From Acaryochloris thomasi RCC1774 (GTDB lineage: Bacteria; Cyanobacteriota; Cyanobacteriia; Thermosynechococcales; Thermosynechococcaceae), in contig NZ_PQWO01000001.1 in assembly GCF_003231495.1 (NCBI RefSeq), forward strand, positions 270,001-302,000: 32,000 nt of DNA. The letters run 5' to 3'. Made by a program: the position numbers and the translations under genes. Shown in pieces: positions 1-25,429 of the stretch (the first letter of the stretch is position 1; every line of letters begins with the position of its first letter). The notes under the pieces were generated by a model, which was not told the DNA's origin, made no database searches, and saw nothing but the letters and a program-made list of their open reading frames with translations.

Positions 1-2560
1 ACGTTCGCCGCAGCATCCGCACAATATCGCCCTCATCTAAACTCGTGTGGGTACACAGCTCCAGCCAGTCCATTCCCAACGCCCACTGCTCCACAATGCC
101 AATCAGCTCCGTCTCCAACCCAATAGGACTCATAACATCCTGACGATACTGCTCCTTAAGCAACTGCCGCTGAATCGGACGCAGCTCAGCCAACGCCTCC
201 TGCACTTCTGCTGAAGGAGAAAAGTGAGTCCAGGTATCGGTGCGATTGTTGTCGTAAACCAGTGCCGTACAGGCCGCCGCCAACTGATGCGGAGCCAAAC
301 TGTCAAAAACGCCGGAGCTAAAAACCAGCCCTAGCCACAGCTCATTCTCGCCCCGTAGCCCAGAGGCCATCTCTCCCAAAGGCGTCGGTGTCACATCCTG
401 CAGACCGTTGAAGTGGCGCAGCACCTTGACCAGGCCCATAAACTCATCCCAGTGGTGGTGCGATCGTCGATGGAATTTAGTTTGACGATCTTCTAACTGT
501 GCTTCCAAGCTCTTCACCCGTCGCTGCCACCGCAAAATTGAATGGTGACTCTTACGCGAAGCATGGGCCGGATGCCCCTCTATCTTCTGCTGTACTGCCT
601 CCAATCGCTTGCTCTGGTCATGGACTTCAGGAGCCACCTGCCATTCTCCCGCCGGGATTTGCTTGGCAATAGCAACACTCGATTCATCCCCATTGGCAGA
701 CTGTCCTACTTTCGGCTGCAACGTTGCGGGAGGTGTCAATGCTTCCAGCTCAGCCTCTAGCGAAAGATGGCCTTCTAAGCTAGCAACCTCTTTATGGGAA
801 ATCACCTGCCAGCGGTTCTTCTGAGTTAAAGAAATAAAGTACGGAAGCTGACCGGAACTAGGCAACTGGCGGACCAAGATGGCTGAAACGGGGCTGTCTT
901 GTTCTGATGTTTGGACACCCACCACAGTTCCGATAGGCGCATGAGCCATAATCAGGGCTAGCTCTTGAGCGCGGTTTTCTTGGGCCTGCTGCTGCAAAAT
1001 TTTCAATAAGCGCCGCTCTTCTTTAACGCGCTGCCGCAGCTTTTGATAGCTGTTGAGTTCTGCTAGGTCGATATCGGCTAGCTTGGCTTGAAGGCTGGTC
1101 AGTTCTTGCTCTACAGATGCGATCGCATCTTTCTGCGGATTGAGCTGTAGCATCCCCAAATACTGCCCGAAGCTTTTCTCAATCAGAGCCTTAGCTTCAT
1201 CAAGGCTGTGCGTCTGCAGCAGATTCAGCACCATCCCGTAGCTAGGGGTAAACTGGCTTACCAGCGGATCAGCTCCTACAGTCGCCAGGTAGGATGCTTC
1301 CTTCGCCCCTTCAAAACGAGTTTGCACCGTGACGACGTGACCGCTATCATCCATCCCTCGCCGTCCGGCTCGCCCTGACATCTGCAAAAATTCAGAGGCC
1401 GTCAGCAGGCGATGGCCGTCGTCTGTGCGTTTCGATAGTGTAGAAATCACCGTCGTCCGCGCAGGCATGTTGATCCCTGCAGCAAGCGTTTCAGTGGCAA
1501 AGACCACCTTGATTAATCCCTGCTGGAATAGCTCTTCCACTAATCCTTTCCAAGCTGGGAGCAGACCGGCATGGTGGGCGGCAATACCGCGATAGAGGGC
1601 GTCAAACTGTTCCAGTTGCCCGACATCAGGGTTCTGCTGCCGGAAGGCATCCACCTGACGCTTCAGTTCTGAGGCTTCTGCATCATTGACGAGACTCAAA
1701 CCGCTGGCCTCTTGGACCGCTTTATCGCAGCCCCGCCGACTGAAGATGAAATAAATGGCAGGCAGCATGTCCCGCTGGCGCATCTGTTCCACAATGCTGG
1801 GGAGGCTGGGCACATTGGGCCGAGGTGGACGCTTACCGCGATGACGACCGCGACCGCGATTCTTATTACTGGGCTTCGCCATTTGTGACTTAAGCTGCGG
1901 ATGCATCTTCGTCTTTTGCTCATTGAGCAGACGGCAGAGGCCTTTATTTCCAGCGAAATGGAAGTTAAGGGGTACGGGTCGCCAATCGGAATCCACCAGA
2001 TCTGTGGGGCCATGCACCCAGCTAATCCAGTCCGTGAGCTGTCCCGCATTCGCCACCGTCGCCGATAGGGCAATAATCTGAATCTGGGGCGGACAGTAGA
2101 TAATTGACTCTTCCCAAACCGTGCCTCGTTGACGGTCGTTCATGTAGTGGCACTCATCCAGCACCACTGCTGACACATCCTCCAGTACCTCGTCCACATC
2201 CCCCAACAGCGTGCCGTAGAGAATGTTTCGGAAGATCTCAGTGGTCATCACCAATATTGGGGCGTCTCGATTAACGGAGCGATCGCCTGTCAATAACCCC
2301 ACCTTCTGCGGGCCAAATTGCTGACGAAACTCGTGCAGCTTCTGATTTGAGAGCGCCTTGAGGGGCGTGGTATAAAAGACCCGTTTCCCCAGACTTAAGG
2401 CCCGATGGATGGCGTACTCACCGATCACCGTTTTGCCTGCGCCCGTGGGGGCTGAGACAACGACCGAGTGGTTCTCGTTTAGAGATGCGATCGCATCTTT
2501 CTGAAACGCATCCAGCTCAAACGGGAAAAGAGTAGTTAGGTCCAGTGGAGAATGTGCCAC
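1..2560 (-). CDS. Ski2/HelY-like DEAD/DEAH-box superfamily-2 helicase, C-terminal end cut by the window edge
   Basis: Absent from the ORF track because it runs off the window. Manual translation from GTG (2560-2558) is open for 853 codons: VAHSPLDLTTLFPFELDAFQKDAI..., Walker A APTGAGKT, DECH box (VVLDECHY), SAT (LSATV), motif VI QMSGRAGRRG, then a long helical C-terminal region resembling the DSHCT/Ski2 C-terminus. The small listed ORFs 542-824 and 1696-2073 are out of frame or antisense inside it. Confidence 0.85.
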   Translation of the reverse strand, partial: MAHSPLDLTTLFPFELDAFQKDAIASLNENHSVVVSAPTGAGKTVIGEYAIHRALSLGKRVFYTTPLKALSNQKLHEFRQQFGPQKVGLLTGDRSVNRDAPILVMTTEIFRNILYGTLLGDVDEVLEDVSAVVLDECHYMNDRQRGTVWEESIIYCPPQIQIIALSATVANAGQLTDWISWVHGPTDLVDSDWRPVPLNFHFAGNKGLCRLLNEQKTKMHPQLKSQMAKPSNKNRGRGRHRGKRPPRPNVPSLPSIVEQMRQRDMLPAIYFIFSRRGCDKAVQEASGLSLVNDAEASELKRQVDAFRQQNPDVGQLEQFDALYRGIAAHHAGLLPAWKGLVEELFQQGLIKVVFATETLAAGINMPARTTVISTLSKRTDDGHRLLTASEFLQMSGRAGRRGMDDSGHVVTVQTRFEGAKEASYLATVGADPLVSQFTPSYGMVLNLLQTHSLDEAKALIEKSFGQYLGMLQLNPQKDAIASVEQELTSLQAKLADIDLAELNSYQKLRQRVKEERRLLKILQQQAQENRAQELALIMAHAPIGTVVGVQTSEQDSPVSAILVRQLPSSGQLPYFISLTQKNRWQVISHKEVASLEGHLSLEAELEALTPPATLQPKVGQSANGDESSVAIAKQIPAGEWQVAPEVHDQSKRLEAVQQKIEGHPAHASRKSHHSILRWQRRVKSLEAQLEDRQTKFHRRSHHHWDEFMGLVKVLRHFNGLQDVTPTPLGEMASGLRGENELWLGLVFSSGVFDSLAPHQLAAACTALVYDNNRTDTWTHFSPSAEVQEALAELRPIQRQLLKEQYRQDVMSPIGLETELIGIVEQWALGMDWLELCTHTSLDEGDIVRMLRRT

Positions 2561-2630
2561 GCAAATCAAGGATCCAGTTGTTACCCGGTCATCCTAGCAA
2601 GATCTGCTGGAGTAGGAAGAGAAATCAACC

Positions 2631-3719
2631 CTATACCTTAATCAGCACCTCACCCTGCAGCATTCGGTTAGCCGCATCCAGCAGCATTTCTTCTAGGTAG
2701 GGTTTCGTGAAGTAGCCCTTAGCCCCCAAATTCATCGCCATCTGCTTGTGCTTGGTGGCTCCCCGAGAGGTCAACATTGCTACCGGCAAATCGTGGAGAT
2801 CATCATCTTGCTGTAGCTTAGACAACAGCTCTAAACCATCCATTCTCGGCATTTCTACGTCACAGAAAACCAAATCACAGGGTAGACCTGAGCGCAGTTT
2901 CTCCCAAGCTTCCATGCCATCTCGAGCCTGCTCAACTCGATAGCCCACTTTATTGAAGGTCATCGACAGCAGCTCACGCACCGTAATGGAGTCATCCACA
3001 ATCAGCACCATCGGCGCTAGCTCTTCTTCCGCCGGTAGCATGTCGCCCGCATTGGCCCACAGATTGCTCGTGCTTTCAATACGGTCAAAGCTGAGGTCAA
3101 GAAGTTCGAGCACATCAGCAATCGGCATAATGCGGCCATCGCCCTTCACTGTGACTCCAGCAATGCCGAGGGGCTTTGGAGCCGGGCCCCCGAGCTGTTT
3201 AATCACAATTTCCTGCTCGCCCATCACCTGATCAACCTGAATGGCAACTCGCTCATCCCCACTGCGTAGAATCACAATGGAAACTTGGTCAGGATTCTCC
3301 TGCGGCAGACTATAGGCACTGCTGCGCTTCAGGCGACGATTATAGGTAAGCAGCTCACTCAGGGGCTTACATAGGATCTGCCGATCCTGCCAGGTGACAA
3401 AGACCTGGCCGTTCTCGTTGGGCTGGAGCTGAGCTTTAGGCACGTCGATCACGTCCTGAACACCATCCATCGGGAAGGCGATTTGCGATTTTTGGTTCTC
3501 ACAACACAGCGCCTTGGTGATGCTTAGGGTCAACGGCAGACGAATCGTAAAGGTGGTGCCCTTACCCAGGCCAGAGTCTGTATTAATGACGCCGCGAATA
3601 TCATTGATGCTGCTGCGGACCACGTCCATGCCGACGCCCCGCCCCGCCAAGTCTGTAACCTTATCTTGGGTCGTAAATCCTGACATGAACAGCAAGCCGT
3701 AGGCATCTTGCCGCGACAT
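2631..3719 (-). CDS. CheA C-terminal fragment (G2 region of the HATPase, CheW-like domain, C-terminal receiver domain). CheA homology continues upstream to 3836.
   Basis: Contains GRGVGMDVV, GKGTTFTIRLPLTL and receiver motifs LIVDDS, DVEMPRMDG, KPY. The upstream in-frame codons 3720-3836 encode QGNQTIISITDDGAGIDPERVKAKAIDNKLITPEQAKT (G1 box) without a start codon. Confidence 0.8.
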   Translation of the reverse strand: MSRQDAYGLLFMSGFTTQDKVTDLAGRGVGMDVVRSSINDIRGVINTDSGLGKGTTFTIRLPLTLSITKALCCENQKSQIAFPMDGVQDVIDVPKAQLQPNENGQVFVTWQDRQILCKPLSELLTYNRRLKRSSAYSLPQENPDQVSIVILRSGDERVAIQVDQVMGEQEIVIKQLGGPAPKPLGIAGVTVKGDGRIMPIADVLELLDLSFDRIESTSNLWANAGDMLPAEEELAPMVLIVDDSITVRELLSMTFNKVGYRVEQARDGMEAWEKLRSGLPCDLVFCDVEMPRMDGLELLSKLQQDDDLHDLPVAMLTSRGATKHKQMAMNLGAKGYFTKPYLEEMLLDAANRMLQGEVLIKV

Positions 3720-3836
3720 TGTTTTGGCCTGCTCTGGCGTAATCAGCTTATTGTCGATTGCCTTTGCTTTAACGCGCTCAGGATCAATCCCAGCGCCATC
3801 ATCTGTAATCGAAATGATGGTCTGATTCCCTTGATA

Positions 3837-3863
3837 TAGCGGTTCCTAGGCTGCTGAGGTGCA
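3837..3863. repeat. IS630-family terminal inverted repeat (end nearest the transposase stop codon)
   Basis: TAGCGGTTCCTAGGCTGCTGAGGTGCA, against the reverse complement of the other end, TAGCGGTTCTCGACCTGATGAGGTACA. There are 9 perfect terminal bases and about 20 of 27 matches overall. Confidence 0.8.
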
Positions 3864-4418
3864 GTAACAGCAATGAGTAAACCATCCTTGAAGGTCATCT
3901 AGCGACACTTTAGAGAACGCATCTTCAATGGCTTTTGCGAGGTCAGTGTAAGTTCTGGCACCGACGGAGCGTAGGAGACTTTTGATCTTCGACCAGCAGT
4001 TTTCAATGGGTGAGAAGTCAGGTGAGTATGGCGGCAGATAAATCAGCTTAGCCCCCGCTTTCTTAATCCAGGTTGCAATGTCCTCTCCAAGATGAATAGA
4101 GCAGTTATCCATAATGACACAGGCTCCTTTCCATAGCTTGGGTATGAGTTTTTGAGAGATAAACGCCTCAAAGGTGAGTCCGTCTGTTGCCCCCAGTAGG
4201 GCAACCTGAGTGACGACGCCCTGCAAGCTAATGGCACCAATCAAAGAGACATTCTTACCGCGCCGACTGGGGCGGTCTCCCCGTGCTCTTTCTCCCTTTG
4301 TTGACCTAGCGTATAACCGAGTCATCGCCAGGTTTATGCCCGACTCGTCAATGAAAATAAGATCCTGGGCGAGAATGCCTTGGATGAGTTCCCAGTATTC
4401 TGAACGCTTACGCTGCAC
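3846..4418 (-). CDS. IS630-family transposase, DDE catalytic part (orfB). The frame is open upstream to 4463.
   Basis: Catalytic motifs are IFIDESG, VIMDNCSIH and SPDFSPIENCW, with 34 residues between the second D and the E (DD34E). The upstream in-frame extension reads HEKKSLHPTEKESERVQRKRSEYWE. Confidence 0.85.
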   Translation of the reverse strand: MQRKRSEYWELIQGILAQDLIFIDESGINLAMTRLYARSTKGERARGDRPSRRGKNVSLIGAISLQGVVTQVALLGATDGLTFEAFISQKLIPKLWKGACVIMDNCSIHLGEDIATWIKKAGAKLIYLPPYSPDFSPIENCWSKIKSLLRSVGARTYTDLAKAIEDAFSKVSLDDLQGWFTHCCYCTSAA

Positions 4419-4422
4419 CCGT

Positions 4423-4800
4423 TCACTTTCCTTTTCGGTCGGGTGTAGGCTTTTTTTTTCGTGTCAAGTTCAGCTTCCTCAACATCCGAGCCATTGTTGA
4501 GCGTCCAATCGTAACGCCAGTGGCTTGTTTCAATTTTTCCTGCAACTCGGCTAAGGTCGCATCATTATTCGCATTCACGAGTGTTGCAAGCGTCTGTAGC
4601 TGTGCATCATTGAGCTTGGTCGGGGTTTGCTGAGTCCGAACTTTAGGGGCAATACTGCCTGTCTCTCGCTCTTGTTTGAGTAATTTCTCAATGAAACTCA
4701 GAGCCACTCGAAATCGTTTTGCTAATTGACGCTGAGATATTCCACCAGCTTGATAGGTATCAAAAATCTTTTGGCGTAAGTCAAGAGAGTAGGGTCTCAT
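4423..4800 (-). CDS. IS630-family transposase, N-terminal HTH part (orfA)
   Basis: MRPYSLDLRQKIFDTYQAGGISQRQLAKRF... is a typical IS630 N-terminus. The ATG at 4800 is preferred over the TTG at 4815 given in the track. The ORF ends just after an A9 run (T9 on the plus strand, 4451-4459). Confidence 0.85.
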   Translation of the reverse strand: MRPYSLDLRQKIFDTYQAGGISQRQLAKRFRVALSFIEKLLKQERETGSIAPKVRTQQTPTKLNDAQLQTLATLVNANNDATLAELQEKLKQATGVTIGRSTMARMLRKLNLTRKKKPTPDRKGK

Positions 4801-4811
4801 TCCTATCAAAC

Positions 4812-6776
4812 TCAATAGGGGGTTAGATTCTCTATTTGTACCTCATCAGGTCGAGAACCGCTATAGAAAGCCCGAATCTTGATCAGACCTTCTGTCTCTT
4901 TATCCACGGACTGACGAACATCAGGATATTCAATCCCGTGGAAAATTGCGTTGTTGACCAAGTGCGTCAGCGGATCGTAGAGACGCTCTAGAATGCTCTT
5001 ATCGACTAAGGTATTCTGTCCTTCCAGCTCCAGGCGTGCCTGTTTGCCACACTTGAGCGAAATATCGCGGACCGCCCGAGGCAGTCGCTCAGCCACCTGC
5101 CCAAAGGGCACCATGCGGGATTTTGTTAAGCCTTCCTGAACCTGCGTCGTCACCTGCCGGAAGATGCGGGTCACCTGCTCTGTGGAATCCACCACAAATT
5201 CAATATCGGAGGCTGCCTCTCGCACACGAACAATACGCTCAATCATTTCTTGAGAGAGGGTATGGAAGCCCGTAAAGCTATCCATCTCTAGGGCATCAAA
5301 GTCGGCACCGGTTGCGTGGGTGCTGCTACCGTTATCGCTGTTGCCACCGCCGCCGCTTGTAGCTTGGGCAGCACTGAGCAAGGAACCTTCTAAAAGCGAA
5401 CGCTCATAGAGGTCCTCCATTTTTTGCCCCAGGTCGTTGAGCTGCTGCACCTGAAATAAAAGGTTATCTAAGAACTGCCGGAGTCGATCTTGACCATCTT
5501 CTAGGGTATTCCGACTGACCAGTAGTTCACCCACCAAATCGCTGAGCTTATCGAGCTGCTTAACCGGAACCTTCATGGTTTGATTGAGGTTTCCACCCAC
5601 GCGGCGGCTGGCCCGTGGTGCTGCAGCAGCGACCCGTGGAGCAGCGACAGGAGCCGCTTTAGGCTCGTCTAAGAGCTGTTCGAGATCGTCAAAGTTGGTG
5701 GTCGCAGGGACCGGTTCTTCAGGGGAAGCCTCCGCAGGGCTGGGCTGGGGAGCGTCTGCCGTCAGCAGTTCATCTAGGTTCAGGGAATCGCTCTCGTTGA
5801 CGCTGATGGCTTCAGGCTGCGGCTCTTGCAGCAGATCATCCAGCAAGAAGTTGAGATCTTTATTAGTGCTGGTATCAGCAGGTTCATCGCCGAACAAATC
5901 ACCCAGCCAGTCGTCAGCCCCATTGGCGTTACTGGTCTCTACAGGTAACAAGGCGAGCAGGGCTGCAGAAGGAGCAATCTCGGTCGCTCGGTTATTGAGA
6001 ACGAGGTCCCGTGCTGCTTTAAGTTCAGGCACGACGACCTGAGCGAGGGTCTCCCAGGATTGACCGGGGTTTGCGATCGCAACTCTATTCTTCTCCACCA
6101 GATCCGTCCATCCAGGAATCTGAAAAGCCTGTCCCAGATCTTCAAGCCCTTGGCACACATTCTGCAGCTCTTGCCGGTGTGATACCTCATCCGGCCGCTT
6201 GAACACATCCAGCATCACGCGCAGTTGCTCCAACACATCCGTCTGGAATGCCTCTAGACACACTGGATCGGGTTCGGCCCCCACCGTCACAGCCACGGGC
6301 GCAGGTGCAGCCGCCACCGGTGCACTATGGAGTAAATCACTCAAATCAACCCCGGGCCCCACCAGTTGCGCGAGATGGTGATGTAAGTCATTAAAGGCAG
6401 GCTCAACACTATTGAGCGTCTGCTCAGAAATATCTGGAGAGAGCGCAAAAGAACTCTCCAGCTCTACCGTTAAGGCACTCAGCGCATCAAATCCTTGAAA
6501 AAATAAGGACTCTAGCTTTTGGTCAATCTGAATAGGATGCTCTTTAAGGACTTTAAAATAATCCTCTAGGCGATGGGCAATGTGCTGCATACTGTGGATG
6601 CCGAGCATAGCCGCCCCACCCTTCACAGAGTGTGCCGCTCGAAAGACATCATTAAGCATCTCTGGCTCTGCAAGCACATCTTGCAGATTCAGCAAACCAT
6701 GCTCAATCGTATTGAGGTGTTCCTTGGCCTCCTCAATAAAGTAGACCATAATCCGCTGTTGTTCTGGCTGCATCAC
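4812..6776 (-). CDS. CheA N-terminal fragment (HPt domain, P/A/E-rich linker, dimerisation region, N-box of the ATPase). The last 16 codons are read-through into IS sequence.
   Basis: Has the HPt signature RAAHSVKGGAAMLG and the N-box HLVNNAIFHGIE. After ...IRAFY the sequence SGSRPDEVQIENLTPY* is encoded by the IS terminal repeat. Confidence 0.85.
   Translation of the reverse strand: MMQPEQQRIMVYFIEEAKEHLNTIEHGLLNLQDVLAEPEMLNDVFRAAHSVKGGAAMLGIHSMQHIAHRLEDYFKVLKEHPIQIDQKLESLFFQGFDALSALTVELESSFALSPDISEQTLNSVEPAFNDLHHHLAQLVGPGVDLSDLLHSAPVAAAPAPVAVTVGAEPDPVCLEAFQTDVLEQLRVMLDVFKRPDEVSHRQELQNVCQGLEDLGQAFQIPGWTDLVEKNRVAIANPGQSWETLAQVVVPELKAARDLVLNNRATEIAPSAALLALLPVETSNANGADDWLGDLFGDEPADTSTNKDLNFLLDDLLQEPQPEAISVNESDSLNLDELLTADAPQPSPAEASPEEPVPATTNFDDLEQLLDEPKAAPVAAPRVAAAAPRASRRVGGNLNQTMKVPVKQLDKLSDLVGELLVSRNTLEDGQDRLRQFLDNLLFQVQQLNDLGQKMEDLYERSLLEGSLLSAAQATSGGGGNSDNGSSTHATGADFDALEMDSFTGFHTLSQEMIERIVRVREAASDIEFVVDSTEQVTRIFRQVTTQVQEGLTKSRMVPFGQVAERLPRAVRDISLKCGKQARLELEGQNTLVDKSILERLYDPLTHLVNNAIFHGIEYPDVRQSVDKETEGLIKIRAFYSGSRPDEVQIENLTPY
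4837..4863. repeat. IS630-family terminal inverted repeat (end upstream of the transposase)
   Basis: Partner of 3837-3863. The plus strand ends ...CCTCATCAGGTCGAGAACCGCTA and is followed by TA. Confidence 0.8.
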
Positions 6777-6833
6777 TTTTTCTCTATCTCCCTGAGGATG
6801 ATTTTAATTCCCGCAACGTTAATTAAATGTGGC

Positions 6834-9323
6834 CTAGCTGACTTCAGTACCGTCAACCCTAAATCTCTCCACAGAAGACTGGAGGTCGCTAGCAACACCC
6901 ACCAAGTTCTGAAGTGAATCAGAGACTCGCTGAGCCTCCTGCGATGTTTCTTGGGCCGTCAATTCGACTGACTGCATCACCTGAGACACATAGCGAGACG
7001 TCTCTGTCTGCTCTGATGTCGCTTGGGTAATTGAACTCACAAGCTGATTAATCTGTGACGAAACTTGAATGATGTCTTCTAGCGATCGCTTCGCCTGTTC
7101 CGCCCGCTGAGTTCCCTCAATAACCTGCTGTGTGCCTTCCTCCATTGCTGTCATCACAGAGCTAGTCTCACCCTGAATCTGGAGCACGATTTGCTCAATC
7201 TCTTTGGAAGCCTTCGCTGCTCGATCAGCCAACTGTCGAACTTCGTCCGCAACAATGGCAAAGCCTCGGCCTGACTCACCCGCTCGAGCCGCCTCAATAC
7301 TGGCATTGAGGGCCAGCAGGTTGGTCCGAGACGCAATCTGTGAAATCACACCCACAATCTTAGAAATCTCTTGAGAAGACTCCGCCAGACGCTTCACCTT
7401 ACGCGTACTCTCAGCCACTGTTTCTCGAATTTGAAGAATACCCGCCATCGTGTGTTCTACAGACTCGCCTCCCTTCAGTGCCGCATCTGACGCCTTTTGG
7501 GCCACCTGGTCCGCAGCTCGGGCGCTCTCAGCCACCTCTTGAATCGAAGCGGTCATCATTTGCACAGAGTTGAGAGAAACCGCCAGCTCCTCCGCCTGTC
7601 GCAATGCATCAGAAGACAAGCCGCGAGCAAACTCTTCATTGTCTGCTGCACCTCGGTTCACCTCACGCGCTGCCACCTTCACCTGCTTTACAATTTTCTG
7701 CAGGTTATAGATCGTTAAGTTAAAAGAGTCCGCAACTGCGCCCAGAATGTCAGCCGTCACCTCGGCCTGCACTGTCAAGTCACCTCGGGCCGCGCCTTCT
7801 ACATCATCCAGCAGGCGAATCACCTGACGCTGCAGATCTTCCTTCGCCTTTTCCTGCTCTTCTGCCTTATTCTGGACTTCTTGAGTTGTCGCTTCAATGA
7901 AACGCGTCATCTCGTTAAAGCTGGTCGCTAACTGACCAAACTCATCCTTTGAAAATTCTGTAGCCCGGACACTCCAGTCTCCCTGAGCAACCGCAGACAG
8001 CTTTGCCTGTAGGTCGCTGGTGGACGCCTTAATCTGCTTAGCGGTCATTTGCCCGAGCACCAGAGTGGTCGCCCCTCCGGCAAGACCCGCCGCCGCTGCA
8101 CCCATGCCAAGGGTTGCCCAAGCAGGTTGTGGTGCAGTCAAGCCCACGCCAATCACAGCGCCTGCAGAAAGAACGCCTGCAGCCGTCGCCGTAATCACCT
8201 GTTTTTGCTGCAAAGAGGCATTTGTAAACGGAGCCAAGATGCCGGAAGGCTTCTGCGGCGCAACCGGAGCAGCCATCCCCCCAGGGAAAGACATTCCAGC
8301 CCCCACGGCGCCAACACTGTTGTCTTGGTTGAGGGTCAAAGAAGAATCAACCGCATCAAAATCATCTAGCAATAAACCAGACTGATCGCCCGTGGCATCC
8401 AATAGACTGGGCGACGTCATCATATCCATCGAGTAGGAGGGGTCTAGCGCACTACTTTGATCGTCGAGTTCAAAATCAGCCAGGGTGGGCAGACCATCGC
8501 CCTCTATATCATCATCGTCGCTAGGCATGTCGCCCGAGGTCAGACTGTTATCGGCATAAGCAGATGCATCACTAGTTGCAGGAGAAGCCGCCCCCGAAGA
8601 CTCAGAATCAATAAAGTCTAAGATGCCGGTATTAGGTAGGTCATCTTCATCATCAGAGAAAGAATCGTCTAAGAAAGTTTGTCCACCGCCATTATTAGCG
8701 GTATGACCTAGCGCCGGAACATCTGAGATCGAATTATCTGATGCGAGAGCTTCTTGATTTTGGTGCATGAGGATGGTCATATCTTCCTCTGTATTCCCTT
8801 GATCCGCGCCATCACTTAGGTCCTGGAGGACCAAGGAAGCATCATCAGCGTTCTCATCAACGCTTCCATTTGAATCAAAAGGATTTGTATACATTGAATC
8901 GTCGCTGTGTGTCATTGTTGAATTCGAATCTCGTTCTGACTGCATGACTGTATTGCCCGAAGATTGTAAAAACGTTGCCTCTGCCGCGCCCGACGCATCA
9001 GAGTTCGAAGATGATCCCATCGACTGGATTGAAGTTGCTCCGCCAGAGTCGTCGATATAGTGACTCGTATCTGCTAGGCTAGAGCGAGCACAATCAACGA
9101 GTTCTGGGTCGCTCGTGAGGTCCAAAACAGACTGATACTGGCCTTGAGCATCTTTATATCTTTCTAGACCCCGATAAATATGCCCCCGTAGCAAGCGCAA
9201 ATTTGGATCATCAGGCTTGTACTCAACCAGGGAGTCCGTTGCCAAAATGGCTTCCTGATAATGCTCCTTCATATAAGCGCTAACGGCTTGTTGGTAGTCC
9301 TGGGCGTACTGGGTACTTGACAT
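6834..9323 (-). CDS. Methyl-accepting chemotaxis protein (PilJ/HmpD-like): TPR-like N-terminus, long acidic low-complexity region, two TM helices, HAMP, MCP signalling domain
   Basis: 829 aa. The signalling hairpin reads [40 protein letters not shown]. The HAMP-like segment reads [18 protein letters not shown]. Confidence 0.9.
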
Positions 9324-9489: not shown

Positions 9490-10023
9490 CTAGGTTGCCC
9501 ACCTTGCCGATCGTAAAATCGCAGTAGGGTCTAGGAGTCGAAGCGATTGATGGGTGCCATCCATCATCCACTCTCCTTTGAGAAAGGGAGCCATGCTGTC
9601 TGGTGCATTCGTTGACAAGGTGAGCTGCTCCGTATCTAGCCAGTCCATTCCCATTACCCGCTCAACCGCAAGTCCAACCGTCACTTCTTGAGTTTCGATG
9701 GCAACAATTGAAATTTCAGAGCGATCAGTATTTAAAGGTTGAGCATCACCTAGAAACTGACCAATATCTGTGACCCAAATGACCTGCCCCCGTAAATTAA
9801 GAATACCCATTAGTAGAGGTGAAACATTAGGGACCAAAGTGATTTGCTCTGGATCAAGGGACAATACTTCCCGAATACCCATAGCAGGCAGGGCAAACTC
9901 TTGACCTGACTCTACAAAAAAGCGTAGATATAAATCACCTTCAGGGTTTTGCAGCCCTTGGAGTTCGGGAAGCGGTTCTGAGGGATTCGTCGTGAGAAAT
10001 TCTTGATTCGTAGACATGATCAC
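9490..10023 (-). CDS. CheW-like coupling protein (PilI/HmpC-like)
   Basis: 177 aa with a CheW fold pattern (LRFFVESGQEFALPAMGIREV...LNLRGQVIWVTDI). The GTG start directly abuts the upstream stop codon. An alternative ATG lies at 10017. Confidence 0.85.
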   Translation of the reverse strand: MIMSTNQEFLTTNPSEPLPELQGLQNPEGDLYLRFFVESGQEFALPAMGIREVLSLDPEQITLVPNVSPLLMGILNLRGQVIWVTDIGQFLGDAQPLNTDRSEISIVAIETQEVTVGLAVERVMGMDWLDTEQLTLSTNAPDSMAPFLKGEWMMDGTHQSLRLLDPTAILRSARWAT

Positions 10024-10389
10024 TTAACCTGCGAGTAGTTCTTTAACGGTGACCAATAGTTCCTGAACAGCAAAAGGCTTAGCAAGATAAGCGTCTGCAC
10101 CCTGCTTCATTCCCCAATACCGATCAAAATCTTCTGTTTTAGATGAACAGATAACAACAGGTAGGTTTTGCGTACCTGGATCAGATTTAATCTTGCGACA
10201 AACTTCATAGCCATTCATTCGTGGCATAATAATGTCTAAGACTACAATATCAGGGTGAGTAGCCTCAATTTGCTGCAAGGCTTCTACTCCATCTGTTGCA
10301 ATCAATACAGTCAGGCCACTTTCTTCGAGTACATTACTCATGAGTTGCCGTTGTGTAATGCTATCGTCTACCACTAAAACCTTGTTCAT
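10024..10389 (-). CDS. Single-domain CheY-like response regulator (PilH/HmpB-like)
   Basis: 121 aa with VLVVDDS, DIVVLDIIMPRMNGYEVCRKIKSDP, FDRYWGMKQGADAYLAKPF. Confidence 0.9.
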   Translation of the reverse strand: MNKVLVVDDSITQRQLMSNVLEESGLTVLIATDGVEALQQIEATHPDIVVLDIIMPRMNGYEVCRKIKSDPGTQNLPVVICSSKTEDFDRYWGMKQGADAYLAKPFAVQELLVTVKELLAG

Positions 10390-10937
10390 TGGGTTGCTAC
10401 CTGAGATCTATAGATCATTCCGAGATGAGTTAACCTAGAGTCTGCGCTGAGTCTAAAACTCCGCAGGACCACGGGTGAGAAGCCGAAATATTCTCAAAAA
10501 AGGTGGGTCATCAACTGTGTACAATTGTGTACTCGTCGGTTGGGAAACTAGACTATGGGTCTAGGCCGATGGGCCTGTAGCTTTAGGATACCCGCCCTAG
10601 AGAAACAAATTTCAGCGGTTCTTGACGCAGATCTGGCAAAAGCTTTGTTTATCGCCTCTGTAAGGTGAACAGTATACCGATGCTCTTCAGCTTTAGCGCA
10701 GTTCAGGTCATGGTTTTTTATGGGTAACTTAAGATTAGGGAATGCAGGATCAGTAATGGCTGCGATAAATCTTATGTCTCACGGTATATTCTATGACTAA
10801 GGAATCTGCAAGATATGATTGCACGGTAACGTTATTGATCGACTAAAACTATGTAAGTTCTAGGTAGGGACGAAGCCAAAATCCAGTCCCAAAGAATAAG
10901 CCAAACTGTCAAGTCAGAAACGAAAGAGGATCGCGGG

Positions 10938-12632
10938 GTGCTGTATCTAGCAGAGATTAATAAGAAAAGTGGTTTCATGGGGGCAAAAACTGAGCTTAGG
11001 TTGTTAGCCCGCAAGCAATCTGAACACAATTGGAGTCCAGTCCCTGGGGAAGAGTTGCTGCCATTTGATGCCAGCAATGACTATAACCATGGCGTTCTCG
11101 TCTTGGTAGAGGTTGACACCAATCGGAATGTCAAAAACGTTCAAGATGCAACACGACAGCTGGTGGGCATTCTTAAGAATTTTTCACGCATGCGTGAAAA
11201 ATTTAAGACCCAAGAAGAGGAAATTGAGGGTTGGAAGCAGTCTCTTATTTATCAGAGTCAAGAGCTGACTCGCCGCGAAGTAGATATGGAAGCTCGCGCT
11301 GAGGAACTGCAGCAGCTTGAGTTGGAGTCTCAAAAAATTGAACAGCAGCGCAGCGAATTTGAAGATAGCCGCGATCAGATTCTGCAGCTCAAGGAGCAGC
11401 TAGAGGGAGATCGGCAGCAGCTAGAAGAGGCATGGGGGCGTTTACAGACTGCTCAACAACAGCTCGACACCGCTCAATCTGCCTCTTTGAGTGATGAGCA
11501 AGTTCATCAAGTTGAAGGTTTACTGCAGCGCCTAGAAACTGAATTAGGAAACGGGGGAGGCGCTGATGCAGGCATGCTCGAGCAGCAGCAAACTCACTTC
11601 AATCAATACTGGCAGTCATTAGAAGAGGATCGCAGTCAGGCTCAGCAACTTGAGGATGCGTTAAATCAGAAAACTCGCGATCTAGACCAAATCTGGCAGG
11701 ACTGGCGTCAGACCCAGGGGACTTTGGAGGAAGCACAGCTAGAGCTAAAGCTACAGGAAAAGATATTGACGGTGAAGTCAGAGAGCCTCAGCTTCTTAAT
11801 CACGCAGCTGCAGGCGCAGGCAGATATTGCTCAAGCCCTCAATCAGGTCCGAGATGGCTTTACCGGTAACGCGACGGTAAATTTGCAGGCTCTCAGATCT
11901 ATGTCTGTTGAAGACCTTGAAGAAACGGTTAGCCGCCTGCAAAAAGAGCTAGACAAGCTTTCAAGCTTTGTCAATGACCAAGAAGAGGAGCTAGAACTGC
12001 AGCAACAGACGATTAACGAGCTAGAGTCTCAGGTCGAGCAGGCGAGTGAGTATGAGCGTCTGAGTCTCACCGGTGACCTCGAGCAGGAACAGCAGCAGTA
12101 TAAGCTGTTGAATGAGACTCTTGAGGGCCAAAGAAAGACGCTACAGGAACGCGAAGGCGTCCTCCATTTGCATCAAGATATTTTGCGACAACGTCAGAAG
12201 GGCAAAGACAGCCGCACGCGCCAATCTATTGAGGTGAAGCTAGAGCCGATTCTGCAGCAGCTAGAGGCTGAGCAAGAGGAGGGAGATCAGCAAGTACAAG
12301 TGCTCAAAAATGAGATTGCGCGCATTCAGGTCTCTATTCAAAATGCGGAGGGAACGCTGCAGCCGCAGATCGCTGCACAACAAAACAAGCGCAGTCAAAT
12401 TGAGGCTCAGGAGCAGGAGCTGAACGAACAGCGGGCGACGGTCGCGCAGCGCTGGGGACGGGTCAAAACCCTTGAAGATGTCTTACAGCCGATGCAGAAC
12501 GCGCTTGATGCCATGCGTGGTCAGGGAAGCGAGAATGGTTCGTCGGGTGGTCCCCCTCACGAGGCCGTTGCGGAGTTAAAGCAGGTCTTGATGGCTCTGG
12601 GTAAGGTGCCCGATCTAACACCAGTGGCCTAA
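10938..12632 (+). CDS. hmpF: HmpF-like coiled-coil protein, divergent from the chemosensory operon
   Basis: 564 aa from a GTG start. The N-terminal MLYLAEINKKSGFMG... domain is followed by about 450 aa of Q/E/L-rich heptad-type coiled coil. The divergent position next to a Pil/Hmp cluster matches the hmpF arrangement I recall from Nostoc punctiforme. Confidence 0.6.
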   Translation: MLYLAEINKKSGFMGAKTELRLLARKQSEHNWSPVPGEELLPFDASNDYNHGVLVLVEVDTNRNVKNVQDATRQLVGILKNFSRMREKFKTQEEEIEGWKQSLIYQSQELTRREVDMEARAEELQQLELESQKIEQQRSEFEDSRDQILQLKEQLEGDRQQLEEAWGRLQTAQQQLDTAQSASLSDEQVHQVEGLLQRLETELGNGGGADAGMLEQQQTHFNQYWQSLEEDRSQAQQLEDALNQKTRDLDQIWQDWRQTQGTLEEAQLELKLQEKILTVKSESLSFLITQLQAQADIAQALNQVRDGFTGNATVNLQALRSMSVEDLEETVSRLQKELDKLSSFVNDQEEELELQQQTINELESQVEQASEYERLSLTGDLEQEQQQYKLLNETLEGQRKTLQEREGVLHLHQDILRQRQKGKDSRTRQSIEVKLEPILQQLEAEQEEGDQQVQVLKNEIARIQVSIQNAEGTLQPQIAAQQNKRSQIEAQEQELNEQRATVAQRWGRVKTLEDVLQPMQNALDAMRGQGSENGSSGGPPHEAVAELKQVLMALGKVPDLTPVA

Positions 12633-15324: not shown

Positions 15325-17349
15325 ATGGTTGTTCAGTTAGGTCGAGACATTTGTGGAGATCTGCCGACTGCAGAGAAAAGAGAATGGCTGATCACCAACG
15401 GCATGGGTGGATATGGAGCAGGCACCGTCGCTGGGCTGTTGACCCGACGCTATCACGGTCTATTGGTTGCAGCCCTGAAGCCGCCGCTGGAGCGCACGTT
15501 ACTGCTGACTAAGCTCGATGAGAGCGTTGATTATCAAGGGAAAGTCTACGAACTGGCGACAAACCGCTGGGCAGACGGCACGGTTGCACCGCAGGGCTAT
15601 CAGAATATTGAGCAGTTCCAGCTAGAAGGCAGCATCCCGTTATGGAAGTATGCCTGCGGGGAGGCACTGCTAGAGAAGCGAGTCTGGATGCAGCCGGGAG
15701 CTAATACGACCTATATTCACTATTGTCTCAAACGGGCCAGTGCGCCGCTCACCCTGACGATTAAAGCGTTCGTCAACACCCGCGATCATCACCATGAAAC
15801 GCGGGGGCAAGACTGGCAGATGCAAATCGCGCCTGTGCCTCATGGCGTTCGTGTGTCTCCGTTTGAGGAGGCAACCTCTTTCTCACTGCTCTGTGATCGA
15901 GGCGAGGTGAAAGCTGAACATCTATGGCACAGCGGTTTCGATATGTCCCTAGAACGATACCGAGGGCTGGGCGATCGCGATGACAACCTTCACTCCACAA
16001 CGATTGCGATTACGCTTCAGCCTGGGGAGACACTGACGATTGTGGCCAGCACTGAGAGCGATCCGAAGTTAGATGGCAAAGTGGCTCTCTCAGAGCGTCG
16101 TGCCCACGAGCAAAGGCTGTTAGCAAGTTGGAAGGTGGTCTCTCCCACTAAAGCAACAGCCCCTTGGATTGATCAGCTCATTTTGGCTGCGGATCAGTTT
16201 GTTGTGGATCGTCCATTGCCAGAAGCACCAGAGGGTAAAACCATCATTGCCGGATATCCCTGGTTTGGCGATTGGGGACGCGACACGATGATTAGCCTAT
16301 CGGGGCTGACGCTGACGACGGGGCGCGCTGAGATTGCTCGCACCATTATTCACACCTTTGCCCAATACCTCGATCAGGGAATGCTGCCCAATGTTTTCCC
16401 TGAAGTGGGAGAGGAACCCGGTTACAACACCGTCGATGCGATTCTTTGGTACTTCGAGGCGATCCGTGAATACTATGCGGCAACCAGAGATGATGCGCTA
16501 CTCGAAGAAATCTATCCAGCCTTAACAGAGGTGATTGCTTGGCATCAAAAGGGGACTCGCTACGCCATTCACTTGGATGACGATGGCTTGATCTATGCCG
16601 GGGAAGCAGGCGTTCAGCTCACCTGGATGGATGCCAAGGTTGGCGATTGGGTGGTGACGCCTCGCGTGGGTAAGCCAATTGAGATTAATGCTCTTTGGTA
16701 CAGCGCTCTGCGAATGATGGCGCAGTTGGCGCAACGGTTGGGTAAGCCCCACCAATCGTTTCAGGATATGGCTGAGCAGACCCGATCTGGCTTTCAGCGG
16801 TTTTGGTCGGCTGATCTGGGCTACTGCTATGACGTGTTGGATGGACCCGAGGGTAATGATGAGGCCCTACGTCCGAATCAGATTTTTGCGGTTTCTTTGC
16901 CAATGGCGTCGGGGCAAATTGGGAGTACTCCGCTACTCTCTCCTGATCAACAGCGGGCGGTGGTGGATATTTGCGGGCGGTCACTGCTGACTTCTGTGGG
17001 GTTGAGATCGCTTTCTCCAGCTCACCCAGACTATACAGGGCATTACGGAGGGGATCAGCTCAGTCGCGATGGTGTATATCACCAGGGCACGACGTGGGGC
17101 TGGCTGTTGGGGCCTTATGTACAGGCTCATATACAGGTATACAAAGATGCAGAGCAGGCGCGATCGCTCTTAGAGCCAATGGCGGATCATCTATCGGCTC
17201 ACGGTCTCGGAAGCATTAGCGAAATCTTTGATGGAGATGCGCCGTTTGTTCCCCGAGGCTGTTTTGCTCAGGCTTGGTCAGTGGCGGAGACTTTGCGAGC
17301 GTGGGTGGCTGTGGAGCGTTTTGCGAATGGAGCAGAGCAAGACAGATGA
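15325..17349 (+). CDS. Glycogen debranching enzyme, archaeal type (amylo-alpha-1,6-glucosidase family)
   Basis: 674 aa. The N-terminal motif is TNGMGGYGAGTVAGLLTRRYHGLL and the catalytic-domain motif is AGYPWFGDWGRDTMISL. Confidence 0.8.
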   Translation: MVVQLGRDICGDLPTAEKREWLITNGMGGYGAGTVAGLLTRRYHGLLVAALKPPLERTLLLTKLDESVDYQGKVYELATNRWADGTVAPQGYQNIEQFQLEGSIPLWKYACGEALLEKRVWMQPGANTTYIHYCLKRASAPLTLTIKAFVNTRDHHHETRGQDWQMQIAPVPHGVRVSPFEEATSFSLLCDRGEVKAEHLWHSGFDMSLERYRGLGDRDDNLHSTTIAITLQPGETLTIVASTESDPKLDGKVALSERRAHEQRLLASWKVVSPTKATAPWIDQLILAADQFVVDRPLPEAPEGKTIIAGYPWFGDWGRDTMISLSGLTLTTGRAEIARTIIHTFAQYLDQGMLPNVFPEVGEEPGYNTVDAILWYFEAIREYYAATRDDALLEEIYPALTEVIAWHQKGTRYAIHLDDDGLIYAGEAGVQLTWMDAKVGDWVVTPRVGKPIEINALWYSALRMMAQLAQRLGKPHQSFQDMAEQTRSGFQRFWSADLGYCYDVLDGPEGNDEALRPNQIFAVSLPMASGQIGSTPLLSPDQQRAVVDICGRSLLTSVGLRSLSPAHPDYTGHYGGDQLSRDGVYHQGTTWGWLLGPYVQAHIQVYKDAEQARSLLEPMADHLSAHGLGSISEIFDGDAPFVPRGCFAQAWSVAETLRAWVAVERFANGAEQDR

Positions 17350-17477
17350 AGAAGCGCGTGCAATTCTGCCAGATCCTACAGAGGCTTTTGTATGCACCGT
17401 AACCGACGTCTGATGGAATAAAGCTGAACACTTGAACATATCCACTTTTTTTCGTTGTTTTAGATAGAGATGCCACC

Positions 17478-20141: not shown

Positions 20142-20220
20142 GGGAATGGCGTTGCGATTTCATTCTTTGAAAAGCTGCTATTTATACAGGCTTGTCGATG
20201 AGACTCGTTCAACTCTGCAT

Positions 20221-20382
20221 TGGCCCCCCCGGCCCCCCAACTCTGGGGGGAGAGTCTCAACGGCTGGGCTATTTCCCTGAAAGTTGATGCTGTCGTCGAA
20301 ATTATTGGCAACAGCAAAAGTCTGACGGAAGAATCTGCGGCGTTAGGCCGTCCCCCCCAGAATTGGGGGGCTAGGGGGGCCA
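20221..20382. repeat. MITE-like element. Two inverted copies of a roughly 31-bp G6/C6 hairpin module flank about 100 bp.
   Basis: The left copy, 20221-20251, is TGGCCCCCCCGGCCCCCCAACTCTGGGGGGA. The reverse complement of the right copy, 20351-20382, is TGGCCCCCCTAGCCCCCCAATTCTGGGGGGGA. Each copy can fold on its own as CCCCCC-N6-GGGGGG. Confidence 0.65.
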
Positions 20383-20500
20383 GTGAAATATTGCTCGGCG
20401 CTTTCCGAGACCAGTTTACACATCACTACTCTTCGACTAAAAATCATCCAGGCTTCTTCATCGACAAGCAAAGATAGCGATTAAACGCACGAGAACCAGC

Positions 20501-21334
20501 ATGTTCCAAATCTTTCGAGACCATTGGCCCAACTATCTAATTGAAGCCTGGGGACTAGGCACCTTTATGGTGTCAGCCGGTGTTTTTGCAACGCTCTTAT
20601 ACGCAGAAAATTCGCCCTTGTCCTTTCCCCATCCGCTGTTGCGGGATCTGGTGATGGGGTTGGGTATGGGAGGAACCGCGATCGCAATTATCTATTCCCC
20701 CTGGGGCAAGCGCTCTGGCGCACACATCAATCCCGCCGTGACCCTAACCTTCTTTCATCTCAATAAAATCGCAGCCTGGGATGCATTTTTCTATATCCTA
20801 TTTCAGTTCATCGGAGCATTAGCCGGTGTTTTGCTCGTCGCGGTTGCTCTCGGCTCTCCATTCCAGGAGGCTCCCGTGAATTACGTAGTGACCGTACCGG
20901 GGCAGTGGGGATGGCCTGCAGCCCTAGTGGCAGAGTTTACGATTTCTTTTGTCCTGATGACGATGGTGCTCTGGGTCAGCAACACACCCCAGATTGCTAG
21001 GCTAACGGGACTTTTCTCAGGGATACTTGTAACGCTTTACGTTGTCTTCTCTGCGCCTATTTCTGGCTTTGGCATGAACCCAGCTCGCACCTTTGGCTCA
21101 GCTTTACCCGCTCAGACCTGGACGGCGTTTTGGATTTACTACTTTGCACCGCCGCTAGCAATGCTGTTGGCGGCAGACCTGTATCAGCGGATTACGAAGA
21201 TGAGATCGCACTCCATCTGCAGCAAACTTTGTCCCAACGGTGAAACGCCTTGTATCAGCCCGATCTGCTGTAGTGCATGTGATCAGGTTATCCGGCCCTG
21301 GCGGCAGAAAGAGAAAGTTGATGCTATCTCCTGA
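20501..21334 (+). CDS. MIP/aquaporin-family channel with a Cys-rich C-terminal extension
   Basis: 277 aa with two NPA boxes (SGAHINPAVT, GFGMNPARTF) and six hydrophobic segments. The tail reads SICSKLCPNGETPCISPICCSACDQ. Confidence 0.85.
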   Translation: MFQIFRDHWPNYLIEAWGLGTFMVSAGVFATLLYAENSPLSFPHPLLRDLVMGLGMGGTAIAIIYSPWGKRSGAHINPAVTLTFFHLNKIAAWDAFFYILFQFIGALAGVLLVAVALGSPFQEAPVNYVVTVPGQWGWPAALVAEFTISFVLMTMVLWVSNTPQIARLTGLFSGILVTLYVVFSAPISGFGMNPARTFGSALPAQTWTAFWIYYFAPPLAMLLAADLYQRITKMRSHSICSKLCPNGETPCISPICCSACDQVIRPWRQKEKVDAIS

Positions 21335-21376: not shown

Positions 21377-21447
21377 AGGACAAAACGTTGTATATAAGAC
21401 GTTAGAGCCATCATCTGTGTATATGTGTATACGTGAGGAAACGACGA

Positions 21448-22764: not shown

Positions 22765-22795
22765 GTTCCTACCTATTGCAACTGAGGAGAACTGG

Positions 22796-24331: not shown

Positions 24332-24427
24332 ATTCGCTGCTGATACGATTTTGTTTTCAACCGATAGAGATCAGTCGCATATGCATCAACTAAAATTGTG
24401 ATATATATTTCCCACGGTGTAACTGCC

Positions 24428-25421: not shown

Positions 25422-25429
25422 TGTATAAT
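25422..25429 (+). promoter_or_regulatory. Candidate extended -10 promoter element (TGTATAAT) for the VOC gene
   Basis: An exact TGnTATAAT-type match about 130 nt upstream of the ATG at 25560. No convincing -35 element. Motif evidence only. Confidence 0.3.

What the first reader, a model, noticed from the sequence alone, without database searches (positions are those of the whole stretch)
2631..6776. The sole kinase of a pilus-motility chemosensory operon is split by an IS630 element, and in-silico excision restores a perfect 1038-aa hybrid CheA
Seen in the sequence:
- The 4812-6776 ORF carries HPt, linker, dimerisation region and ATPase N-box, then reads into foreign sequence and stops.
- CheA homology resumes at 3836 (QGNQTIISITDDGAGID...) and runs through a CheW-like domain and a receiver to 2631.
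- The intervening 1027 bp has TAGCGGTTC termini in inverted orientation and a duplicated TA.
- Deleting 3837-4863 plus one TA gives 1913 + 1204 = 3117 nt, in frame across ...AFY|QGN..., with no other lesion. This argues for a recent insertion.

Established knowledge: hybrid CheA (PilL/HmpE type) is the phosphodonor of Pil/Hmp systems that control type IV pilus motility in cyanobacteria. From memory, pilL of Synechocystis PCC 6803 also exists as split pilL-N and pilL-C genes, so a split kinase may be tolerated or recurrent.

Inference: either this pathway is null in this strain, or two fragments are made. The C-terminal fragment has an internal ATG at 3719 and could be driven from within the IS.
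Basis: partly seen in the sequence, partly recalled or inferred. Interest (0 to 1): 0.7.

Follow-up and report, generated by a model that had tools for sequence, protein, structure and literature searches.

The report
Pilus-signalling kinase gene broken by IS630
In the cyanobacterium Acaryochloris thomasi RCC1774, a 1-kb jumping gene (IS630 family) has landed inside the kinase gene of the signalling system that controls type IV pili, almost certainly switching the kinase off; this is an ordinary, recent gene knock-out.

Summary
A 1027-bp IS630-family element (window 3837-4863) sits inside a hybrid CheA gene on the minus strand. It has 27-bp imperfect inverted ends and a duplicated TA. Removing it plus one TA gives an uninterrupted ORF of 1037 aa from the true ATG at 6773 (1038 aa from the upstream GTG). 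The ORF has the domain order HPt, dimerisation, ATPase, CheW, receiver. The restored junction KIRAF-Y-QGNQ is collinear with eight intact homologues. A related metagenome contig (81% nt identity) has the empty site at exactly that TA.

The operon (CheY, CheW, MCP, CheA) lies divergent to hmpF, so it is the Hmp/Tax3-type system that regulates type IV pili. The source is Acaryochloris thomasi RCC1774.

The analogy with the split PilL of Synechocystis does not hold. That split falls between whole domains. This one cuts the ATP-binding domain between the N box and the G1 box. The downstream piece has no start codon before Met676, and no promoter-like site was found. The kinase is most likely null.

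Both halves still look purified by selection (dN/dS about 0.05), and the IS looks intact, so the insertion is recent. The strain has been cultured since 1975 and is described as non-motile. This is an ordinary IS knock-out of modest interest.

The parts
4864..6773 (-). 5' part of the hybrid CheA gene (hmpE/pilL type): native residues 1-636 plus the first two bases (TA) of codon Tyr637. Carries HPt (His48), the linker, the dimerisation domain and the N box (604-615) of the ATPase domain.
   Evidence: 100% identical to P0017 'Chemotaxis protein CheA [Acaryochloris thomasi RCC1774]'.
4812..4863 (-). IS-encoded tail of the truncated N fragment: the third base of the Tyr codon, then 16 foreign codons (SGSRPDEVQIENLTPY) and a TGA stop.
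   Evidence: translation; ORF end.
3837..4863 (-). IS630-family insertion sequence, 1027 bp, with the transposase in the same orientation as cheA.
   Evidence: Pfam HTH_Tnp_IS630 and DDE_3. NCBIfam transpos_IS630 at 180.8 bits against a cut-off of 100 for the fused protein. Relatives are 1009-1063 bp with similar ends.
4837..4863 (.). Inverted end proximal to the transposase start (TAGCGGTTCTCGACCTGATGAGGTACA as read on the minus strand).
   Evidence: 9 perfect bases, 20/27 matches to the other end. Same consensus as relatives.
3837..3863 (.). Inverted end distal to the transposase start (TAGCGGTTCCTAGGCTGCTGAGGTGCA on the plus strand). It contains the transposase stop codon.
4864..4865 (.). 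TA, one copy of the target-site duplication.
3835..3836 (.). TA, the other copy of the target-site duplication.
   Evidence: The empty site in L001 has a single TA in codon TAT.
4423..4803 (-). Transposase orfA (helix-turn-helix DNA-binding part), ATG at 4803.
4451..4459 (-). A9 run where the transposase changes frame. Eight A's would give one continuous 317-aa ORF. Likely a slippage site.
   Evidence: 20 of about 23 genomic relatives change frame at a poly-A run (A6-A11) at the same place. The uninterrupted homologue P0121 (80% id) reads straight across the junction.
3846..4418 (-). Transposase orfB (DDE catalytic part). The motifs FIDES, MDNCS and PIEN are all present.
   Evidence: Pfam DDE_3 1.4e-35. 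P0166 'hypothetical protein C1752_00277 [A. thomasi RCC1774]'.
2631..3834 (-). 3' part of the hybrid CheA gene: third base of Tyr637 to residue 1037 plus the stop. Carries the G1 box (648-654), F box, G2 box (701-707), CheW-like domain and receiver (Asp962). The first usable start codon is ATG 3719 (Met676).
6834..9323 (-). MCP of the operon (TPR-like N terminus, HAMP, MCP signalling domain).
   Evidence: Syntenic in L001, L041 and L042.
9490..10023 (-). CheW of the operon.
10024..10389 (-). Single-domain CheY-like response regulator, first gene of the operon.
10938..12632 (+). hmpF (pilus motility taxis protein), divergent from the operon. It identifies the operon as the Hmp/Tax3 type.
   Evidence: NCBIfam NF038350 at 526 bits against a cut-off of 200. 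Same arrangement in L042.

Best explanation
A cut-and-paste IS630-family insertion sequence transposed into a TA dinucleotide inside codon Tyr637 of the hybrid CheA kinase (HmpE/PilL type). This kinase belongs to the Hmp/Tax3 chemosensory operon of Acaryochloris thomasi RCC1774.

The insertion splits the ATP-binding (P4) domain between the N box and the G1 box. The upstream product is a 653-aa protein with HPt, the dimerisation domain and half an ATPase domain. Any downstream product can start only at Met676, so it lacks the G1 box. Neither piece can bind ATP and autophosphorylate, so the kinase is null (inferred). The signalling input to HmpF and type IV pili is then lost (inferred).

The event is evolutionarily recent. 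It may have arisen during the strain's culture since 1975 (speculative).

The IS itself looks functional. Its two-frame transposase joined at an A9 run is the normal arrangement for this IS630 subgroup.
For: Shown:
- Exact IS boundaries, inverted ends and TA duplication; excision restores a 3117-nt ORF.
- The five CheA domains are recovered in order.
- The junction is collinear with eight intact homologues.
- The orthologous contig L001 aligns on both sides, and the gap equals the IS.
- IS630 membership by curated HMM cut-offs and by ends and length like relatives.
- Alignment to T. maritima CheA P4 (1b3q) places the break between the N-box helix and the DDGxGID G1 strand.
- There is no ATG, GTG or TTG between the IS stop codon and ATG 3719.
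- No minus-strand promoter-like site was found in 2400-7000.
- dN/dS against L001 is 0.054 for the N part, 0.035 for the C part and 0.069 for the intact MCP. All catalytic motifs are intact.
- hmpF is adjacent. The same synteny with an intact kinase is seen in L041 and L042.

Literature:
- The strain is described as non-motile. It was collected in 1975 and stays in suspension in culture although it was benthic in the field (PMC6002478).
- Hmp/Tax3-type systems control pilus assembly through HmpF (PMC12288463).
- Loss of Synechocystis PilL-C removes thick pili (PMC7656254).
- A lab strain with a deletion in pilL-C lacks pili and phototaxis; it also carries an spkA mutation, and its authors attribute the phenotype to both (PMC4632739).
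Against: - No expression or phenotype data tie this lesion to a trait.
- The whole genus Acaryochloris is described as non-motile even where the kinase is intact (P0007 and P0015). The lesion may therefore change nothing visible.
- The promoter scan is a crude sigma-70 consensus search, so a weak outward promoter is not excluded.
- The assembly is 20x short-read data, and I could not inspect the reads.
- dN/dS over a divergence of dS about 1.1 cannot date the insertion finely.
- Other CheA kinases in the genome might phosphorylate the surviving HPt fragment. I could not search the genome.
Confidence: 0.85

Rival explanations
1. Functional split kinase. Both fragments are made and reassemble, or the HPt fragment is phosphorylated in trans, so the pathway still works, as with PilL-N and PilL-C of Synechocystis.
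For: Synechocystis runs this pathway with two separate polypeptides that interact (PMC7656254). Both fragments here are free of further lesions.
Against: The cut lies inside the ATP-binding fold, between the N box and the G1 box, not between domains. The first start codon for the C fragment is Met676, after G1. No promoter-like site was found. The N fragment carries a 16-aa foreign tail.
Confidence: 0.05
2. Assembly artefact or minority allele. The IS is really elsewhere, or only some chromosome copies of this polyploid cyanobacterium carry it, and an intact allele coexists.
For: Draft genome from 160-bp paired reads at 20x. Cyanobacteria are commonly polyploid (general knowledge).
Against: A mis-join would not create a perfect TA duplication and an in-frame restoration at a conserved codon. 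The IS is assembled inside a 605-kb contig, and only one A. thomasi transposase of this type appears in the protein database. This suggests a single-copy element that short reads can place unambiguously.
Confidence: 0.06
3. Old pseudogene. The pathway was abandoned long ago in this non-motile lineage, and the IS is one of several decay events.
For: The genus is described as non-motile.
Against: There is no other stop or frameshift in 3117 nt, all catalytic motifs are intact, and dN/dS is 0.035-0.054, no higher than the intact MCP. Close and distant relatives keep the gene intact in the same synteny. The IS ends and the duplication are undamaged.
Confidence: 0.04

Closest known systems
IS630 family (IS630/Tc1/mariner superfamily) insertion sequences of cyanobacteria, e.g. 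the copy annotated 'IS630 family transposase' on Nostoc punctiforme plasmid pNPUN03
   Same: About 1.0 kb long. HTH plus DDE_3 transposase with D, D and E motifs (34 residues between the second D and the E). Imperfect inverted ends of the type TA|(C/T)AGC...GAGGTACA. TA target duplication. Frame change at a poly-A run.
   Different: Only 67-72% nt identity to plasmid copies, and at most 82% aa identity to the nearest genomic relative (Acaryochloris sp. CRU_2_0). It is apparently single-copy in this assembly. Transposition activity and the slippage mechanism are untested.
HmpE of Nostoc punctiforme, and PilL (Hik36 plus Hik43) of the Synechocystis tax3/pilG system
   Same: Hybrid CheA with HPt, dimerisation, ATPase, CheW and receiver domains. 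Encoded with CheY, CheW and MCP next to hmpF (PMC12288463).
   Different: No PATAN-type response regulator in the locus, here or in relatives. In Synechocystis the natural split separates the HPt protein from a complete kinase core at distant loci. Here an IS cuts the ATPase domain.
Loss of pilus or motility genes in laboratory cyanobacteria, e.g. the 981-bp deletion in slr0322 (pilL-C) of Synechocystis GT-G
   Same: The same kinase is disabled in a long-cultured strain that shows no pili or phototaxis (PMC4632739).
   Different: The mechanism is an IS insertion, not a deletion. For RCC1774, timing relative to isolation and the phenotypic consequence are unknown.

Membership tests
IS630 family insertion sequence | Transposase with an N-terminal HTH and a DDE_3 catalytic domain that scores above curated family cut-offs | tested here: met
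   Pfam HTH_Tnp_IS630 36.5 bits (cut-off 21.3) and DDE_3 122.7 bits (cut-off 28.6). NCBIfam transpos_IS630 180.8 bits (cut-off 100) for the frame-joined protein.
IS630 family insertion sequence | Catalytic D, D, E residues present with spacing of about 34-35 residues | tested here: met
   FIDES, MDNCS and PIEN read from the translation, with 34 residues between the second D and the E. The same motifs are conserved in P0121, P0123, P0126 and P0135. Assignment is by motif only, not by structure.
IS630 family insertion sequence | Terminal inverted repeats | tested here: met
   9 perfect bases, 20/27 overall. Same consensus in relatives.
IS630 family insertion sequence | Duplication of a TA target | tested here: met
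   TA at 3835-3836 and 4864-4865. There is a single TA at the empty site of L001.
IS630 family insertion sequence | Able to transpose (active element) | not testable with these tools
   Ends and ORFs are intact, and the frame change at the A run is shared with relatives. No activity data.
Hmp/Tax3 (type 1) cyanobacterial chemotaxis-like system controlling type IV pili | Hybrid CheA with HPt, dimerisation, ATPase, CheW-like and receiver domains | tested here: met
   Met only after in-silico excision. As it stands, the gene is interrupted.
Hmp/Tax3 (type 1) cyanobacterial chemotaxis-like system controlling type IV pili | Encoded next to hmpF | tested here: met
   NF038350 taxis_HmpF at 526 bits against a cut-off of 200, divergent at 10938-12632. 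The adjacency criterion comes from PMC12288463.
Hmp/Tax3 (type 1) cyanobacterial chemotaxis-like system controlling type IV pili | CheY, CheW and MCP genes in the cluster | tested here: met
Hmp/Tax3 (type 1) cyanobacterial chemotaxis-like system controlling type IV pili | Second, PATAN-type response regulator (HmpA/PilG) in the cluster | tested here: not met
   No such ORF between cheY and hmpF. It is also absent from the loci of relatives L041 and L042. It may be encoded elsewhere.
Hmp/Tax3 (type 1) cyanobacterial chemotaxis-like system controlling type IV pili | Regulates pilus assembly or motility | not testable with these tools
   Inferred from homology and gene neighbourhood only.
Naturally split PilL kinase (PilL-N/PilL-C of Synechocystis) | The split lies between complete domains (HPt alone; dimerisation, ATPase, CheW and receiver together) | tested here: not met
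   The break is at Phe636/Tyr637, between the N box (604-615) and the G1 box (648-654) of the ATPase domain. Synechocystis domain maps from PMC7656254.
Naturally split PilL kinase (PilL-N/PilL-C of Synechocystis) | Each part is an independent gene with its own start | tested here: not met
   The first start codon of the 3' part is Met676. No promoter-like site was found (weak test).

The most novel reading that the evidence does not exclude
The insertion is not a simple null. Instead, the surviving HPt-dimerisation fragment and a CheW-receiver fragment (from Met676) are both made and rewire the pathway. For example, the HPt fragment could be phosphorylated in trans by another CheA, or the IS could act as a reversible off-switch that is repaired from intact chromosome copies. 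A milder and more likely version: this one lesion arose during 40 years of culture and explains why a benthic isolate grows as non-motile suspended cells.
Probability: 0.07. Interest if true: 0.55.

Novelty: new member of a known kind. Interest (0 to 1): 0.25.

Why it matters
The finding flags a probable loss-of-function in the pilus-regulating kinase of the type strain of A. thomasi. The public annotation hides this: it lists a 'CheA', a 'hypothetical protein' and presumably a separate C-terminal ORF. Anyone using RCC1774 to study adhesion, motility, competence or lifestyle should know the Hmp kinase is interrupted.

It also offers a cheap, testable explanation for a puzzle raised by the describing authors. 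The strain was benthic in the field but grows in suspension in culture. Beyond that, it is a textbook IS knock-out.

Tried and rejected
- A genome-contig scan for the IS A-run region found nothing, not even the window itself. The A. thomasi genome is therefore apparently not searchable there, and IS copy number and other CheA genes in that genome could not be determined directly.
- A metagenome-contig scan for the 33-nt empty-site sequence found nothing. No same-species empty or filled allele is available.
- A look-up of P0017 by exact sequence found no record.
- The promoter and terminator scan found no minus-strand promoter-like site, so it gives no support for IS-driven expression of the 3' part. 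This test is weak.
- Rfam on the whole window gave no hits.
- I considered that the frame break in the transposase means a dead IS. I rejected this as the default reading, because about 20 relatives share a frame change at the same poly-A run and RefSeq annotates a Nostoc copy across it.
- I considered the Synechocystis split-PilL analogy and rejected it on domain position.
Full report
**Observation**

The region was read on the minus strand, and the junctions were extracted by script.

- The upstream CheA ORF ends ...GLIKIRAFY and then runs 16 codons into foreign sequence to a TGA stop at 4812-4814.
- CheA coding resumes in frame with (Y)QGNQTIISITDDGAGID at 3836 and continues to the stop at 2631.
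- The intervening 1027 bp (3837-4863) starts TAGCGGTTC and ends GAACCGCTA. This is 9 perfect bases, and 20 of 27 when extended. It is flanked by TA on both sides.
- Deleting it with one TA gives 3117 nt with no internal stop.
- Homologues begin MQPEQQ, so the real start is ATG 6773. The restored protein is 1037 aa and the truncated N fragment is 653 aa. That is the length of the database entry P0017, 'Chemotaxis protein CheA [Acaryochloris thomasi RCC1774]', which is 100% identical.

The window therefore comes from the 605,849-bp contig of that draft genome.

**The gene and its repair**

Pfam on the restored protein finds five domains in order:

| Domain | Residues (numbered from GTG 6776; subtract 1 for the ATG-6773 numbering used elsewhere) |
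|---|---|
| Hpt | 10-87 |
| H-kinase_dim | 398-451 |
| HATPase_c | 601-740 |
| CheW | 746-884 |
| Response_reg | 914-1026 |

Eight intact cyanobacterial homologues (about 60-90% identity over the whole protein) read KIRAF-Y-QGNQTIIS without a gap across the junction.

A metagenome contig encodes the closest intact homologue (L001; 89% aa and 81% nt identity). It aligns to the window as 9604-5755, 5796-4863 and 3836-1. The only missing stretch is the IS, and L001 has a single TA in codon TAT at that point.

The phospho-accepting His48, N box, G1, F and G2 boxes and the receiver Asp962 are all intact. dN/dS against L001 is 0.054 for the 5' part and 0.035 for the 3' part, compared with 0.069 for the intact neighbouring MCP gene. 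No decay is detectable. The insertion is therefore recent on the scale that this comparison resolves (dS about 1.1).

**The insert**

The two ORFs of the element hit HTH_Tnp_IS630 and DDE_3. They are joined at an A9 run (4451-4459), and removing one A gives a 317-aa protein. That protein scores 180.8 bits on NCBIfam transpos_IS630, against a cut-off of 100. It reads across the junction exactly like the uninterrupted homologue P0121, which is 80% identical.

Among 38 related loci from other cyanobacterial genomes, about 20 of the 23 or so that span the site change frame at a poly-A run of 6-11 A's at the same place. The copy on Nostoc punctiforme pNPUN03 has A9, and RefSeq gives it a single CDS of 955 nt, which is 1 mod 3. 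A frame change at an A run is a known way of expressing IS630-family transposases, for example transcriptional realignment in a Roseiflexus IS630 (PMC5009743). The two-frame layout is therefore the normal state of this subgroup, not evidence of a dead element. Whether the mechanism is slippage by RNA polymerase or by the ribosome is untested.

Relatives are 1009-1063 bp long and have ends of the same type, TA|(C/T)AGC...GAGGTACA. All structural defining features of the IS630 family are met.

Only one transposase of this type from A. thomasi appears in the protein database (P0166, orfB, annotated as hypothetical, one contig). The element was also assembled inside a 605-kb contig from 160-bp reads. 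Together these suggest a single copy in the genome. This is an inference.

**The operon**

Upstream on the same strand lie a CheY (10024-10389), a CheW (9490-10023) and an MCP with HAMP and signalling domains (6834-9323). Divergent from them, 10938-12632 encodes HmpF (NF038350, 526 bits against a cut-off of 200).

According to a recent review, HmpF is typically encoded next to the chemotaxis-like systems of 'type 1' (Nostoc hmp, Synechocystis tax3). These systems control type IV pilus assembly and act through HmpF (PMC12288463).

Relatives show the same order, CheY, CheW, MCP, intact CheA, then a DEAD/DSHCT helicase. L042 also has HmpF, TsaB and the hydrolase. The IS is therefore the only difference from the lineage's normal layout.

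The PATAN-type regulator (HmpA/PilG) is not in this locus, here or in those relatives.

**Consequence**

Alignment to the Thermotoga maritima CheA P4 domain (1b3q) puts the break between the N-box helix and the strand leading to the G1 box: LILSARH|EGNNVVIEVEDDGRGID.

- The N fragment keeps the HPt and dimerisation domains and the N box.
- The G1, F and G2 boxes lie downstream of the IS.
- There is no ATG, GTG or TTG between the transposase stop codon and ATG 3719 (Met676), so any C fragment lacks G1.
- No sigma-70-like site was found on the minus strand in 2400-7000. This is a weak test.

This differs from Synechocystis. There, Hik36/PilL-N is an HPt protein and Hik43/PilL-C carries complete dimerisation, catalytic, CheW-like and receiver domains. 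The two are encoded at distant loci and interact (PMC7656254).

I therefore infer a kinase-null allele. In Synechocystis, loss of PilL-C nearly abolishes thick pili. A laboratory strain with a deletion in the same gene lacks pili and phototaxis, though it also carries an spkA mutation and its authors attribute the phenotype to both (PMC4632739).

**Context of the strain**

RCC1774 was collected in February 1975 and sequenced about four decades later. It is described as non-motile. The authors remark that, although it was benthic in the field, it lives in suspension in culture (PMC6002478).

An IS hit in the pilus-regulating kinase during long culture would fit this, but the link is speculative. 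The genus as a whole is described as non-motile, and the direction of pilus effects on aggregation differs between cyanobacteria. The genome paper mentions neither transposases nor chemotaxis genes.

**Rivals**

- Functional split kinase: unlikely, for the structural reasons above.
- Assembly artefact: unlikely, because a mis-join would not produce a TA duplication and an exact in-frame restoration at a conserved codon. A mixed population of chromosome copies cannot be excluded without the reads.
- Old pseudogene: contradicted by the absence of any other lesion and by the low dN/dS.

**Verdict**

The hint that the split may be tolerated is not supported. This is a clean and probably recent IS630 knock-out of the Hmp/Tax3-type kinase in a long-cultured type strain. 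It is a new instance of a well-known kind of event. It is useful for annotating and using this strain, but not surprising to a specialist.

Noticed in passing
window 3834-3851: The transposase orfB stop codon (TAG, 3846-3848) lies inside the inverted end. It is in the same reading frame as the 3' part of cheA, so one stop codon separates the transposase from ...EPLYQGNQ. This is probably coincidence (a 1 in 3 chance).
   Followed up: partly
window 10390-10937; L041 5849-6362; L042 5792-6417: No PATAN-type response regulator (HmpA/PilG) lies between cheY and hmpF. The roughly 550-bp gap is non-coding, and relatives have the same four-gene operon. This lineage's Hmp-type locus has only one stand-alone response regulator.
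   Followed up: partly
window 4451-4459 and loci L003-L032: The poly-A run at the transposase frame change is conserved across cyanobacterial relatives, but its length varies (A6-A11). Both +1 and -1 frame arrangements occur, and uninterrupted versions exist in metagenomes (P0121).
   Followed up: partly
window 1-2560 (-): A DEAD/DSHCT-type helicase gene starts 70 bp downstream of cheA on the same strand and runs off the window. It is syntenic in L001, L041 and L042. The IS could have polar effects on it if the two are co-transcribed.
   Followed up: no
window 28460-29641 (+): A 393-aa ORF with a TTG start has a PsbQ (CyanoQ-like) domain only at residues 75-178. This is much longer than a usual CyanoQ. 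The start may be over-extended, or there may be an extra C-terminal region.
   Followed up: no
window 21433-28077 (+) and 30691-31596 (-): A run of oxidative enzymes lies near an AraC-type regulator: a ferredoxin-reductase-like protein with a 2Fe-2S domain, a GMC oxidoreductase, a glyoxalase/dioxygenase-fold protein and a cytochrome P450. Function unknown.
   Followed up: no
window 15325-21334 (+): A glycogen debranching enzyme, an MGH1-like/GH63 glycoside hydrolase and a MIP-family channel lie in a row. This may relate to storage-glucan or compatible-solute turnover.
   Followed up: no
whole window: An exact 38-40-nt pattern from the window was not found in the genome-contig collection. No A. 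thomasi locus came back for the transposase. The source genome seems to be absent or masked there.
   Followed up: partly
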